This document shows positions 31,466-34,400 of a stretch of 64,000 nt of DNA, in pieces (position 1 is the first letter of the stretch; each line of letters opens with the position of its first letter). Position numbers and translations under genes: made by a program. This DNA comes from an uncultured Elusimicrobia bacterium (GTDB lineage Bacteria > Elusimicrobiota > Endomicrobiia > Endomicrobiales > CAIRNS01), in assembly GCA_903880015.1 (NCBI GenBank), contig CAIRNS010000022.1:5544-69543 (forward strand), read 5' to 3'. The notes beneath the pieces were generated by a model. It was not told where the DNA came from. It saw only the letters and a program-made list of their open reading frames with translations, and did no database searches.

Positions 31466-34400
31466 ATAATCATAGCCAGGAATGTGTATGGCAACACGAT
31501 ACCATTGCAGGAGGGGGGTTCAACTGACAATGTGAGAATACCCCCCATCAATCGTATACGCTGGAAACGAGAATGCTGTCCATCTGTATCTTGATCGTTA
31601 ACAACGGTTGCCCCATAATTGACACCCTGTATCTCAAGTTTTTCTATCAGACCTTTGCAATGATTGCAGGGAGCCATAGTAACATAGAGCTGAGACCTTC
31701 GTAACGGATAGCCCAGTTTTCGCGAAACCTTGAGCAATAGCGTATCAGCTGTACCAAACACATCTATGCTATTCTCAGCATTATTGAACTCTCGTGAGAT
31801 TCGCTCAACCCGGTTAAGAGTGCGGTGCATATCCAGCATCATCGCCTGACCGATAGCGCCGCTTGCAAGACGATAATCAATAATCTTGCGCAGAAGGTCA
31901 ATAACCGCAAAATACTCGCCATGCAATCTATTGCCGGCTAGATTATAGCCGTACCCTTCAAGACCTTCACAAACAAGTACGGCACCGACATGTGGCGTCA
32001 ATATGCCCCGATGTTCATCCTGTCCGCGTAAACCTTCTTCGATTGCCTGCCTCATATGCCCTTGCTTTACTACAAGTATTTCAGCGACACGATTGACAAA
32101 GATTGACGACCCCTCTGATATAAACTCACTCAGATTCTGCGGCGATACGGCAACAGTAATTTTTTCGCGCATTATCCCGGTCAACACAAGAGTAGCCCTG
32201 CGGAGCAATTGGAACAGACCCAATAACAAACGATACATCCACGCATTAGTGCCTTCGGCAGTAGCGTAATCTATACGATAGGACATATCCTCAGAACGAC
32301 GCGCGAACCACGCATTCATCCTATCGGACAAAACCCGTTCTGCAGTGAACTTCATTAGTTGATCATCACGCAAAAAATGCGACGATTGCCCTAAAAGAGA
32401 AAATTTCAGTTCGCTTACCACCATCCGCGCTTCATCAGTACTCAAAGCAGGTGACACTTTAGTAAGTTCGACAGCGACAGCGTCACGAAGGCGGTTCTCC
32501 CACATTGCAGCAGGAAGCGGATCTATTATTGCGGGGAGATGACTGCGATCCTGTGACCCTTTCTCCGTCTTAATGCCGAAAGTTTCATACTCTCGTTCAA
32601 TGGTCTCCATAGTAACGGAGGGTTCTACGGCATCGAGCATCAATTTTCCAATATGTTCATGTAACTGTTCATCGGTCAAAAATCGTTTCCCCAAACGTGT
32701 AAAAGTTCCCGCTTCACGAACATCAAGCCCCATTGCTGCCAGCTCAAAAGGCATGCTGAAAGTGTATTTTGGCAATTCACCGCTGTTTGAATAAGCTACA
32801 CCGCCATGAAAGTCCTGCCGGCGCGTGACCGGACCAACCCCGACATAGCCGATTATCGCAGCAAATATGCTTCTGCTGCCAAACACATTCTCCTTAAGAA
32901 CCCTTTCCAGCGCCCTCCCTGCCCAAGGATTCCTGTCAAGGAATGCACCGAATCTATAGAGCGTGTTCATCCATGTTTTCGCAGACAACTGACCCAAACC
33001 TCGCTTATTGGCATACGATTCAACTTGAGCTGCTATTGCCAAAGCGATGGTGGCCCCCGCTATGGTGCCCTCAGCCCACGGCGGTAGAATGTCCTTGATA
33101 ATGCCATTGTTAAGCAAAAATTTGAATATTTCGTTCATCCACAGAGGATGCGATTCAAAATCATTGCCCAAACCGGATAAAGTAAAGAATGTTTGAAACC
33201 GTGACGGATCGGATTCCTGCACTATCCGGCGGGCGACCATCATGCAGAATTTCTCATTCGCCGGTGAAACAATCTGCTTTCGATTGCGGGCATGCATACC
33301 GGCAACAGCGTCACCGCCGTGCTCATACAATTCGAAAAGCACAAACTGTTCACGACCGCCGGTTCGTTCTTTGCGTTGAACGCCTGCAGCGGCAATATGC
33401 GCAGTCAAAGCTTGTGCCGTTTCTTCGACAGTCCCGTCAATGGTTACCATAGAATACGGAATGACTCCCGCGGAAACCATGGTAGAAAAGTTATCGAGAA
33501 TATCTTGGCGATTAACAGCATTCTGCGTACGCGCACGTGCTGCTTCCTCGTCGATCATTGTATCCAGACTCTGCAGAAGATTAAGAGAGCCCCGTTGCGC
33601 TATGCGATAGCGCTCCTGCAGCTCCCCGAGCGTCGTCGGCGACACAGCATGCATATGTTTTACTGCTACTCGTTCCAGCGCAATGTTTTTTTCAAGCATC
33701 GTCATTTCCGTTGACAGCGTTTTCAGATTACTGATTTGTTGTGTCAGGGATTCAAGATGAGCGGAATCGCCACCCGCACGGGCATAATCTTTAAGAAATT
33801 TATTCCCGCTTGCGGCAACAGCAAGACGGGCTTGGCGTTGTATCCCTTCAACTACAAAACCTTCGTCAAGGCGTTTTGGCGCGCCCGTAAGCTGCATGGT
33901 AGGTGTTGCGGGATGTATCGGACCTACAATAGCATCACCGATGTCTTCCCGCTGGATTACACCCGGAACTATTTTCTCGTAACGGCCATTTTTCTTTACA
34001 TACAATGGGCGCTGTTCGTTCACATATTTTTCCGGATTGAGCACCGGATCGGCAGTACCAATACGCTTTTCCCCACTGCTGAGTATCTCCACATGTATCT
34101 TACCGCAACTACCGTTCAAGGCACGCTGTTCACGACGAACTTTGCTTTCCAAACTCTTAAGCTCCTGCCAGCGGCGATAACCAGATGCAACATCCGCCCC
34201 ACCCCCCATAGCCCATACCACAATCAGAACATCATTGCCTTTTTGCAACTGTTCACGAATGGTCTGGTATTCACCCGGGAATTGTTCGACAAATTTATCT
34301 GCAGCCGCATTATCGATTGACTCTTGATGCAGTTTCTGGGCTATGGCAGCGCGAAAATCTCCGGAGAACTTTCCCGCTTTGTTTATTATCAATCCTATAT

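What the first reader, a model, noticed from the sequence alone, without database searches (positions are those of the whole stretch)
31590..32000. C-terminal cytidine/nucleotide-deaminase-like domain with an unusually long insert between the HxE and PCxxC zinc motifs
- The last ~140 aa read TPHVGAVLVCEGLEGYGYNLAGNRLHGEYFAV ... LYVTMAPCNHCKGLIEKLEIQGVNYG.
- This follows the CDA-fold pattern: beta1 VGAVLV, then helix H-x-E (nt 31915-31923), then xYVTxxPCxxC (PCNHC at nt 31657-31671).
- The two zinc-ligand motifs are 84 aa apart by my count, against roughly 25-30 aa in TadA, dCMP deaminase or RibD.
- The usual Glu in TLEPC is Ala here.
- C-terminal deaminase modules on very large proteins are a hallmark of polymorphic toxin/effector architectures in the established literature. 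No small immunity-like ORF follows; the next gene is a 1160-1180-aa protein.
Basis: partly seen in the sequence, partly recalled or inferred. Interest (0 to 1): 0.7.

Follow-up and report, generated by a model that had tools for sequence, protein, structure and literature searches.

The report
Internal deaminase domain in giant protein
The zinc-deaminase domain with an unusually long helical insert is real. It is not a C-terminal toxin tip, because it sits inside a 3,904-residue Elusimicrobiota protein that this assembly splits in two with a 2-base slip in a run of Cs.

Summary

Pfam PF00383 scores above its cut-off. A family profile hits TadA at 1.7e-18. An AlphaFold2 model (pLDDT 85) matches TadA and RibD folds.

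Nine distant homologues keep His, Glu and both Cys invariant and all carry the insert (76-108 residues). The insert is therefore a clade trait, modelled as two extra helices bundled with helix 2.

Five of six near-identical assemblies encode one 3,904-3,928-aa gene. The window has C6 instead of C4 at 31513-31518, which splits it into 2,741 + 1,157 aa inside the domain's last helix. The "next gene" is the same gene.

All homologous domains are internal to 1,083-4,308-aa proteins. Most of these share an uncharacterised N-terminal ~500-aa module that is multi-copy in Elusimicrobiota. No immunity gene, toxin-trafficking domain or defence-model hit was found.

Best reading: a catalytically competent deaminase module of unknown substrate in a giant multi-enzyme protein. 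It is a new variant of a known fold, of moderate interest.

The parts
31414..39639 (-). 5' part (2,741 aa) of a giant gene, as split in this assembly.
   Evidence: ORF list and translation. Identical to P0031, from a 73.6-kb contig.
27923..31512 (-). 3' part of the same gene (P0030, 1,157 aa from the ATG at 31396). In intact alleles this frame continues directly from the deaminase domain.
   Evidence: P0001, P0027, P0028 and P0032 (3,904-3,928 aa) and P0029 read through the junction. L001 translates to the 3,904-aa protein.
31513..31518 (-). Homopolymer run: C6 on the coding strand here, C4 in the intact allele. This 2-bp insertion causes the frameshift that splits the gene.
   Evidence: Alignment of the window with L001 shows one 2-bp gap and 11 mismatches over 11.7 kb. 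Run coordinates.
31483..32061 (-). CDA-fold deaminase domain, aa ~2527-2716 of the intact protein. The last helix is interrupted by the frameshift.
   Evidence: PF00383 at 38.3 bits. Profile against PDB: TadA 1.7e-18, RibD 1e-15. AlphaFold2 pLDDT 85, pTM 0.86. Foldseek to TadA and RibG.
31915..31923 (-). H-G-E motif (H2573 zinc ligand, E2575 proton shuttle) at the N-terminus of helix 2.
   Evidence: Coordinates. H and E are invariant in 10 of 10 family members. The motif aligns to TadA HAE.
31711..31890 (-). Family-specific insert (~60 aa): an extension of helix 2 plus two further helices. It occupies the place of about 9 residues in TadA.
   Evidence: The profile match to TadA splits into positions 3-57 and 118-188. 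DSSP gives helices 48-66, 72-91 and 99-115. His-to-Cys spacing is 76-108 in the family against 25-30 in ordinary relatives.
31657..31671 (-). P-C-N-H-C motif (C2658 and C2661, zinc ligands) at the strand 3 / helix 3 junction.
   Evidence: Coordinates. Both Cys are invariant in the family.
38050..39639 (-). N-terminal hydrophobic helix (aa 22-40) plus a conserved ~500-aa module with the motifs IQDLH, VEGA and VVTGGFH. This module defines the giant-protein family.
   Evidence: BLAST to P0002-P0026. Invariant residues in alignment A2. No Pfam or PDB sequence hit. At least 110 confirmed loci in GTDB species genomes.
35710..36162 (-). Hydrophobic block resembling a CPBP/CAAX-type intramembrane protease (aa ~1160-1310).
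   Evidence: Pfam Rce1-like at E=0.028, below its cut-off. Hydropathy peaks. The motifs WEELAFN, FSASH and HMVFD were read by eye.
30914..31051 (-). N-terminal motif of a HAD-IIB-type phosphatase (DIDGTL), about 170 aa downstream of the deaminase domain in the intact protein.
   Evidence: Pfam Hydrolase_3 at 22.5 bits against a cut-off of 20.9, matching the first 46 profile positions only. Weak NCBIfam HAD-IIB hits.

Best explanation
The region encodes a genuine zinc-dependent deaminase domain of the CDA fold (Helix-4 division, nearest to TadA and RibD).

Shown:
- His2573, Cys2658 and Cys2661 are the expected zinc ligands and Glu2575 the expected proton shuttle. All four are invariant across the clade.
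- The clade is defined by a 55-100-residue helical insert between helix 2 and strand 3.
- The domain is one internal module of a 3,904-aa protein of an uncultured Elusimicrobiota bacterium.
- The protein has an N-terminal hydrophobic segment, a conserved but uncharacterised ~500-aa module, and a CPBP-protease-like membrane block. A HAD-like motif lies downstream of the deaminase, and a kinase-like stretch upstream of the membrane block was read by eye only.
- In this assembly a 2-bp expansion of a C run splits the gene inside the domain's last helix. This creates the false impression of a C-terminal domain followed by a separate gene.

Inferred:
- In the model, helix 2 and the two extra helices are of similar length (17-20 residues) and run back to back. 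I infer that they form an antiparallel bundle.
- In that case the poorly conserved, length-variable loop between the two extra helices would return to the active-site end. It could then act as a lid or specificity element, or as a docking surface for neighbouring modules.
- The domain performs ordinary hydrolytic deamination.
- The substrate is most likely a free nucleotide, nucleoside or base-like small molecule, with the domain acting as one enzyme among the variable enzymatic cargo of this giant-protein family. It is less likely a tRNA editor or a delivered toxin.
For: Fold and family:
- PF00383 scores above its gathering cut-off.
- The family profile hits TadA at 1.7e-18, RibD at 1e-15 and T4 dCMP deaminase at 1e-13. 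Both halves match separately.
- The AlphaFold2 model has pLDDT 85 and pTM 0.86, with the order b1-b2-helix(HxE)-2 helices-b3-helix(CxxC)-b4-b5-helix.
- Foldseek hits TadA, RibG, ADAT2 and guanosine deaminase at E 1e-6 to 1e-4, with target-normalised TM 0.66-0.71 for the best TadA chains.

Catalytic residues and insert:
- H, E, C and C are invariant in 10 clade members at 23-30% identity.
- The insert is present in all of them, with His-to-Cys spacing of 76-108 against 25-30 in ordinary relatives.

Internal position and frameshift.

Giant-family context:
- Variable enzyme domains occur in relatives, including methyltransferases, HAD, HD, GNAT and GH77.
- The N-terminal module is shared.
- Neighbouring genes are housekeeping.

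Against TadA or RibD identity: the TadA and RibD equivalog scores are 22 and 14 bits against cut-offs of 150 and 156.
Against: - No substrate evidence exists. The best sequence and fold hits are tRNA deaminases, so a polynucleotide substrate is not excluded.
- I could not read the model coordinates, so convergence of His/Cys/Cys on one zinc site is inferred from topology and fold superposition, not measured.
- The N-termini of most family members look like Sec signal peptides by eye. If the enzyme array is exported, a role in the producer's own metabolism is hard to reconcile with co-resident domains that would need ATP or SAM. An effector role would then gain weight.
- Local alignments that forbid the insert pair TadA's HAE helix with 'TAD' at aa 2630-2632. 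This would make the domain look inactive.
- In this particular strain the domain may be non-functional if the frameshift is real.
Confidence: 0.6

Rival explanations
1. Polymorphic-toxin or effector deaminase. The giant protein is exported and the deaminase module damages nucleic acids or nucleotide pools of another cell.
For: - The N-termini of family members resemble Sec signal peptides: a KK n-region, a hydrophobic core and a 'QPLFA' end (by eye).
- The family has a constant N-terminal module with highly variable enzymatic cargo, and several paralogues per genome.
- Co-resident domains that would need SAM, or ATP for the putative kinase-like stretch, would only make sense outside the producer if they act inside a target cell.
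- Some homologues exceed the MafB19-deam Pfam cut-off.
- Omnitrophota giant proteins have been proposed to act on prey (bioRxiv 10.1101/2023.11.21.568195).
Against: - The domain is internal in every intact copy.
- No immunity-like ORF, secretion system or toxin-trafficking domain was found here or at three homologous loci.
- PF00383 outscores MafB19-deam in nearly every member, and the window's own domain is below the MafB19 cut-off at 17.6 against 27.
- No PADLOC model matches the deaminase domain.
- The nearest relatives are housekeeping TadA and RibD, not the toxin clades.
- The signal-peptide call is by eye only.
Confidence: 0.15
2. A polynucleotide-editing deaminase that is TadA-like in function. 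It would act on tRNA, another RNA or ssDNA in cis within the producer.
For: - The top sequence and structure hits are TadA, ADAT2 and TadA-derived base editors.
- The N-terminal half (helix 1, VGAV, GxGxN, HxE) is very TadA-like.
Against: - The TadA equivalog model scores 22 bits against a cut-off of 150.
- TadA signature features listed by Iyer et al. 2011 (PMC3239186) are missing or altered. EPCxMC is APCNHC. There is no Glu before strand 1. The Phe of the C-terminal helix is replaced.
- The C-terminal half reads more like RibD or dCMP deaminase (PCNxCxK...GIK; N.SH.G...L..AGI.V..GVL).
Confidence: 0.2
3. A catalytically dead structural domain. The real helix 2 would be the third helix, where HAE has decayed to TAD, and the upstream HGE would be fortuitous.
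For: - Single-sequence local alignments pair TadA 'TAHAE' with 'FGTAD'.
- The best Pfam stretch on the 261-aa fragment starts at that helix.
Against: - The upstream His and Glu are invariant in 10 of 10 members. The 'TAD' position is not conserved: it reads ETN, RTN, NLD, DAS, PTL or DMI.
- The family profile aligns the upstream HAE to TadA's HAE at an independent E of 3e-6.
- The spacing from strand 2 (GYN) to His is short, as in TadA.
Confidence: 0.05
4. In this strain the gene is a true pseudogene or a phase-variable gene. The C6 run would be real, giving a 2,741-aa product with a damaged deaminase domain and an untranslated or separately initiated 1,157-aa remainder.
For: - The window and the database calls P0031 + P0030 agree on C6.
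- A 2-bp homopolymer change is not the most typical single-base sequencing error.
Against: - Five other assemblies at about 99.9% DNA identity are intact.
- The downstream 1,157-codon frame shows no decay.
- Homopolymer length errors are a common assembly and polishing artefact (general knowledge).
Confidence: 0.3

Closest known systems
TadA / ADAT2 (tRNA adenosine-34 deaminase; PDB 1z3a, 2b3j, 8e2q)
   Same: - Best sequence-profile and fold match.
- Helix 1, VGAV strand, GxGxN, HxE, LYVT-PCxxC and the Helix-4 topology are shared.
   Different: - A 55-100-aa helical insert replaces about 9 residues after helix 2.
- EPCxMC is APCNHC here.
- It scores 22 bits against the 150-bit TadA equivalog cut-off.
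- It is embedded in a 3,904-aa protein rather than being a ~160-aa dimeric enzyme.
RibD/RibG deaminase domain (riboflavin pathway; PDB 4g3m, 2hxv)
   Same: - Second-best sequence and fold match.
- The strand 4 - helix 4 - strand 5 region has a RibD-like pattern, and JGI names P0024 'RibD-like'.
   Different: - The zinc motif is PCxxC, whereas the RibD-type hits retrieved here have a shorter His-to-Cys spacing of 25-29.
- From memory, RibD spaces its two Cys more widely (about PCx8C).
- There is no C-terminal reductase domain.
- TIGR00326 scores 14 bits against a cut-off of 156.
dCMP deaminase / CDADC1
   Same: - The segment after PCxxC resembles PCNECAK..GIK. CDADC1 and DCTD were the best single-sequence PDB hits, but not significant.
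- T4 dCMP deaminase is matched by the profile at 1e-13.
   Different: [quoted passage not shown]
- Its own insert is at a different site.
Polymorphic-toxin deaminases (MafB19, DddA/SCP1.201, SsdA and others)
   Same: - A deaminase domain on a very large protein.
- Weak MafB19-deam Pfam similarity.
   Different: - The domain is internal, not C-terminal.
- There is no immunity gene and no trafficking domain.
- It belongs to the Helix-4 division near TadA and RibD.
Omnitrophota giant proteins ('Archaeovorins', bioRxiv 10.1101/2023.11.21.568195)
   Same: Very large proteins of small-celled, uncultured phyla. They mix membrane segments with metabolic-enzyme domains such as HAD, and their localisation is unresolved.
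   Different: - Ten-fold smaller (1.5-4.7 kaa against more than 30 kaa).
- No SecA-DEAD domain detected.
- Defined by a different, conserved N-terminal module.

Membership tests
CDA-fold deaminase superfamily (Pfam PF00383 dCMP_cyt_deam_1) | Score above the Pfam gathering cut-off. | tested here: met
   38.3 bits (261-aa fragment) and 30.1 bits (whole ORF) against a cut-off of 25. Eight of the nine homologues score 34-62 bits; P0025 scores 20.5, below the cut-off.
CDA-fold deaminase superfamily (Pfam PF00383 dCMP_cyt_deam_1) | HxE at the start of helix 2 and PCxxC at the start of helix 3, conserved in relatives. | tested here: met
   H47, E49, C132 and C135 are invariant in alignment A1 of 10 sequences. 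Coordinates.
CDA-fold deaminase superfamily (Pfam PF00383 dCMP_cyt_deam_1) | Three-layer alpha/beta/alpha fold with the Helix-4 strand order. | tested here: met
   AlphaFold2 pLDDT 85. Foldseek probability 1.00 to TadA, RibG and ADAT2, with target-normalised TM up to 0.71.
CDA-fold deaminase superfamily (Pfam PF00383 dCMP_cyt_deam_1) | His/Cys/Cys converge on one zinc site in three dimensions. | not testable with these tools
   Model coordinates are not exposed. Convergence is inferred only from topology and fold superposition.
TadA (tRNA adenosine-34 deaminase) | NCBIfam equivalog NF008113 at or above 150 bits. | tested here: not met
   22.4 bits, matching positions 70-106 only.
TadA (tRNA adenosine-34 deaminase) | EPCxMC motif, a Glu before strand 1, and an E/F-bearing C-terminal helix (Iyer et al. 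2011, PMC3239186). | tested here: not met
   The sequence reads TMAPCNHC and GILTPHVGAV (no Glu). The C-terminal helix is LSVEPLLQWY, with Y/W in place of F.
RibD deaminase | TIGR00326 at or above 156 bits, and a fused RibD_C reductase domain. | tested here: not met
   14.1 bits. No PF01872 hit in the giant protein.
dCMP deaminase / ComEB | [quoted passage not shown] | tested here: not met
   Only 6 residues separate GYN and His. The motif reads HGEYFA. The insert lies after helix 2 instead.
MafB19-like toxin deaminase (PF14437) | Score at or above 27 bits. | tested here: not met
   17.6 bits for the window domain. Some homologues reach 29-38 bits, but apart from P0025 (itself below both cut-offs) they stay below their PF00383 scores.
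Polymorphic toxin system | Toxin domain at the extreme C-terminus. | tested here: not met
   About 1,190 residues follow the domain in the intact gene. The domain is internal in all nine homologues.
Polymorphic toxin system | Immunity gene immediately downstream. | tested here: not met
   The downstream sequence is the same gene, followed by a flavodoxin-like gene. None is present at the P0021, P0023 or P0024 loci.
Polymorphic toxin system | N-terminal trafficking or repeat domains (RHS, haemagglutinin, LXG, PAAR, MafBN). | tested here: not met
   No such Pfam hit at E<=1. Only a signal-peptide-like N-terminus, judged by eye.
Omnitrophota giant genes (West-Roberts et al. preprint) | More than 30,000 aa, a divergent SecA-DEAD domain and numerous transmembrane regions. 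| tested here: not met
   3,904 aa. No SecA hit. About 4-5 hydrophobic segments.

The most novel reading that the evidence does not exclude
The long-insert deaminase would be one warhead of a phylum-specific family of exported giant multi-enzyme effectors.
- The family would combine a signal peptide, a novel IQDLH...GGFH N-terminal module, a CPBP-type protease and variable enzymes.
- It is multi-copy in Elusimicrobiota and present in sister phyla.
- The effectors would be processed and delivered into host or prey cells, where the deaminase would edit or deplete nucleic acids or nucleotides.
- This would be a delivery architecture distinct from known polymorphic toxins, and a new deaminase clade for base-editing work.
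Probability: 0.12. Interest if true: 0.75.

Novelty: new variant of a known kind. Interest (0 to 1): 0.4.

Why it matters
- **New insertion site.** The CDA fold is known, but an insert between helix 2 and strand 3 is not among the sites found in term searches of the 2011 Iyer et al. classification. Those were strand 2/helix 2, within CxxC, strand 4/helix 4 and strand 4/strand 5.
- **Rare clade.** A single-sequence search of 1.84 billion cluster representatives at E<=1e-3 returned only 10 representatives with this insert. All sit inside giant proteins of Elusimicrobiota or Omnitrophota.
- **Base editing.** New deaminase clades are of practical interest because TadA is the parent of adenine base editors.
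- **Host family.** The host proteins share a conserved N-terminal module with no Pfam or PDB match. They carry swappable enzyme cargo and occur in several copies per genome. This uncharacterised feature of a whole phylum may matter more than the deaminase itself.
- **Annotation.** A 2-bp homopolymer difference turned an internal domain into an apparent C-terminal 'toxin'. Alignments that forbid the insert would also wrongly call the domain catalytically dead.

Tried and rejected
- Word-indexed homologue search with the 261-aa fragment found nothing. The exhaustive representative search was needed.
- A profile search with A1 in the 5.8-billion-sequence database was swamped by ordinary TadA and RibD and did not extend the clade.
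With the single fragment it found no relative in GTDB genomes.
- The viral fold library gave only ordinary dCMP deaminases.
- PADLOC gave only two weak kinase-model hits (E 1e-4 and 1e-2) at aa 936-1036 and nothing for the deaminase.
- PDB sequence searches with the kinase-like stretch and with the 1,157-aa 3' part gave nothing significant.
- The N-terminal module has no Pfam or PDB sequence hit. Foldseek on its model gave no significant hit. The best named one was erythromycin esterase EreC at E=0.4, so the Tiki/TraB/ChaN/Ere resemblance I recalled from the motifs stays untested.
- Literature searches found no description of this clade or of the giant family.
- I considered and rejected alternative genetic codes and stop read-through as the reason for the 3,904-aa call. 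The two ORFs are in different frames, and the DNA alignment shows the indel.
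Full report
**1. What is at the coordinates**

- The window carries a 2,741-codon ORF on the minus strand (31414-39639), followed by an overlapping 1,180-codon ORF (27923-31465).
- Near the end of the first ORF the sequence reads MRQAIEEGL...HVGAVLV...GYGYN...LHGEYFAVIDLL...(insert)...LYVTMAPCNHCKGLIEKLEIQGVNYGA.
- His to the first Cys is 85 residues. In 37 ordinary TadA and RibD proteins retrieved later the same spacing is 25-30.
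- It is the only in-frame motif pair of this kind in the six-frame translation of the window.

**2. It is a real deaminase fold**

- Pfam PF00383 scores 38.3 bits on the last 261 residues, against a cut-off of 25.
- An exhaustive search of 1.84 billion cluster representatives found the gene itself plus nine distant homologues, P0018-P0026, at E 6e-10 to 8e-4.
- In their alignment (A1, 23-30% identity to the query) the invariant columns include the Gly of VGA, His and Glu of HxE, Tyr and Thr of strand 3, and both Cys of CxxC.
- A profile of A1 hits TadA structures at 1.7e-18, RibD at about 1e-15 and T4 dCMP deaminase at 1e-13. The match splits into two stretches: profile 3-57 against TadA 8-62 (HAE on HAE), and profile 118-188 against TadA 72-148.
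- About 60 profile positions therefore replace about 9 TadA residues between helix 2 and strand 3.
- AlphaFold2 on A1 gave pLDDT 85 and pTM 0.86. The order is helix 1, strands 26-31 and 34-39, helix 48-66 (HxE at its N-terminus), helices 72-91 and 99-115, strand 124-127, helix 133-141 (CxxC), strands 146-149 and 170-172, and helix 177-190.
- Foldseek against the PDB returns TadA, RibG/RibD, ADAT2 and guanosine deaminase with probability 1.00.
- I could not read the coordinates, so the convergence of His/Cys/Cys on one zinc site is inferred, not measured.

**3. The insert is a clade trait**

- All clade members have it, with His-to-Cys spacing of 76-108. Its sequence is poorly conserved except for hydrophobic positions.
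- The three helices are of similar length and run back to back. I infer an antiparallel bundle in which the low-confidence, length-variable loop between the second and third helix returns to the active-site end. This is an inference from the DSSP string only.
- Term searches of the classification of Iyer et al. [quoted passage not shown] They found no mention of one between helix 2 and strand 3 (PMC3239186).
- There is an alignment trap. Alignments that do not allow the insert pair TadA's 'TAHAE' with 'FGTAD' at aa 2628-2632, which would suggest a dead enzyme. The invariance of the upstream HxE and the non-conservation of the 'TAD' position argue against that reading.

**4. The domain is not C-terminal**

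- The whole-ORF search returned P0001, which is 3,904 aa, 100% identical and covers 99% of the query.
- P0001 follows the window ORF up to ...LSVEP and then continues LLQWYRVAIHIPGYDYLQRVY... into the downstream ORF.
- The 90%-identity cluster holds six assemblies:
  - P0001, P0027 (MCX5778930.1, 'Elusimicrobia bacterium') and P0032, all 3,904 aa.
  - P0028 (MEI8217427.1), 3,928 aa.
  - P0029, N-terminally cut but reading through the junction.
  - P0031 (2,741 aa) plus P0030 (1,157 aa) on one 73.6-kb contig, which are the window's own gene calls.
- DNA of an intact allele (L001) differs from the window over 11.7 kb by 11 substitutions and one 2-bp gap. The window has GAACCCCCCTCC and L001 has GAACCCCTCC, at window 31513-31518.
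- The frameshift falls inside the last helix of the deaminase model (residues 177-190).
- The intact frame (…GILTLSVEPLLQWY…) fits the family pattern better than the window's out-of-frame tail.
- Whether C6 is an assembly error or a real mutation cannot be decided here.

**5. The host protein and its family**

- Apart from the deaminase, Pfam finds only a weak Rce1/CPBP-like match in a hydrophobic block (aa ~1160-1310) and the first motif of a HAD-IIB phosphatase about 170 aa after the deaminase.
- A stretch at aa ~960-1130 looks kinase-like by eye and gives weak hits to PADLOC kinase models only.
- The first ~530 residues are a hydrophobic N-terminal segment plus a module with invariant IQDxH, EG, several Glu and GGFH. 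This module is shared with P0002-P0017 and with eight of the deaminase-bearing relatives.
- This module has no Pfam or PDB sequence match and no significant fold match. Its model has pLDDT 76, and the best named hit is EreC at E=0.4.
- Beyond this module the relatives differ and carry assorted enzyme domains. These include 4-alpha-glucanotransferase, GDE, glycogen synthase, transaldolase, methyltransferases, HAD, HD, GNAT and PP2C.
tblastn confirmed 110 of them.
- Almost all confirmed loci are from Elusimicrobiota (Endomicrobia, Elusimicrobiales, Ruminimicrobiellum). A few are from Omnitrophota, Firestonebacteria, Goldiibacteriota and FCPU426. There are up to nine loci per genome.
- Only one of these 8-kb loci (L109) also contains the deaminase domain. 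The deaminase is therefore an occasional cargo module.
- Most N-termini look like Sec signal peptides by eye. Localisation of the enzyme array is unresolved, as it is for the Omnitrophota giants.

**6. Context**

- Neighbouring genes are housekeeping. They include pyruvate kinase, pyruvate:ferredoxin oxidoreductase, the glycogen branching enzyme, a GT2 glycosyltransferase and a flavodoxin-like protein, and further out glmS, glmM, ftsH and tilS.
- The loci of P0021, P0023 and P0024 are also housekeeping, without small downstream ORFs of immunity type or secretion genes. P0023 also follows oxidoreductase genes, as in the window.

**7. Interpretation**

- Shown:
  - An intact-looking catalytic motif set in a confidently modelled CDA fold.
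  - A clade-specific insert.
  - An internal position in a giant multi-domain protein.
  - A split caused by a 2-bp indel.
- Inferred: zinc-dependent hydrolytic deamination.
- The domain does not pass the tests for TadA, RibD or dCMP deaminase. Its substrate is unknown.
- I lean to a free nucleotide or base-like substrate, at about 0.4. TadA's RNA-binding signatures are missing, the C-terminal half is RibD/dCMP-like, and the family's other cargo domains are metabolic enzymes.
- A polynucleotide substrate (about 0.2) or an exported effector role (about 0.15) remain open.

**8. Verdict**

- The toxin interpretation is not supported on architecture.
- This is a new variant of a known fold in an uncharacterised giant-protein family, of moderate interest.

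Noticed in passing
window 38050-39639 (-); loci L005-L119: The N-terminal ~500-aa module (invariant IQDxH, EG, GGFH) has no Pfam or PDB match. It defines a family of 1.5-4.7-kaa proteins with variable enzyme cargo. At least 110 loci exist in GTDB genomes, almost all Elusimicrobiota, with up to 9 per genome. From memory the motifs recall the Tiki/TraB/ChaN/erythromycin-esterase superfamily. Foldseek gave EreC only at E=0.4.
   Followed up: partly
window 39520-39576 (-) and the N-termini of P0002-P0026: The N-terminal hydrophobic segments look like Sec signal peptides (basic n-region, hydrophobic core, conserved 'QPLFA'-like end). This would put putatively ATP- and SAM-dependent domains outside the cytoplasm. 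Judged by eye only; no predictor was available.
   Followed up: partly
window 35710-36162 (-): The hydrophobic block carries CPBP/CAAX-protease-like motifs (WEELAFN, FSASH, HMVFD). The Pfam Rce1-like match is at E=0.028, below its cut-off. In P0019, P0022 and P0023, hydrophobic segments (not tested for CPBP similarity) lie roughly 45-100 residues upstream of the deaminase domain.
   Followed up: partly
window 36250-36762 (-): A protein-kinase-like stretch (IIGAGGNGLVYEV..KALKV..LMELV..DDLQVMIDN..YDLS). It has no Pfam or PDB sequence hit and only weak PADLOC kinase-model hits (mad6 at E=1e-4).
   Followed up: partly
window 31738-31746 (-): 'TAD' at aa 2630-2632 aligns to HAE of TadA in local alignments that skip the insert. 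Automated annotation could wrongly call the domain catalytically dead.
   Followed up: yes
window 16300-20660 (-): A low-GC stretch (0.38-0.39, against about 0.49 elsewhere) holds two paralogous TPR + radical-SAM + SPASM proteins of 791 and 598 aa.
   Followed up: no
window 39869-40900 (-): The pyruvate kinase ORF is only 343 aa and matches the barrel domain alone. The usual C-terminal domain is absent. The same 343-aa call is present in L001.
   Followed up: no
window 49444-54033 (-): A 1,529-aa protein made almost entirely of TPR repeats. It sits next to genes for polysaccharide pyruvyl transferase, DUF5693 and a lysyl-PG-synthase C-terminal domain.
   Followed up: no
L002 2970-15881 compared with window 31414-43471: The distant homologue P0023 (27-28% identity) also lies just downstream of pyruvate:ferredoxin oxidoreductase genes. 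This hints at positional orthology despite the divergence.
   Followed up: no
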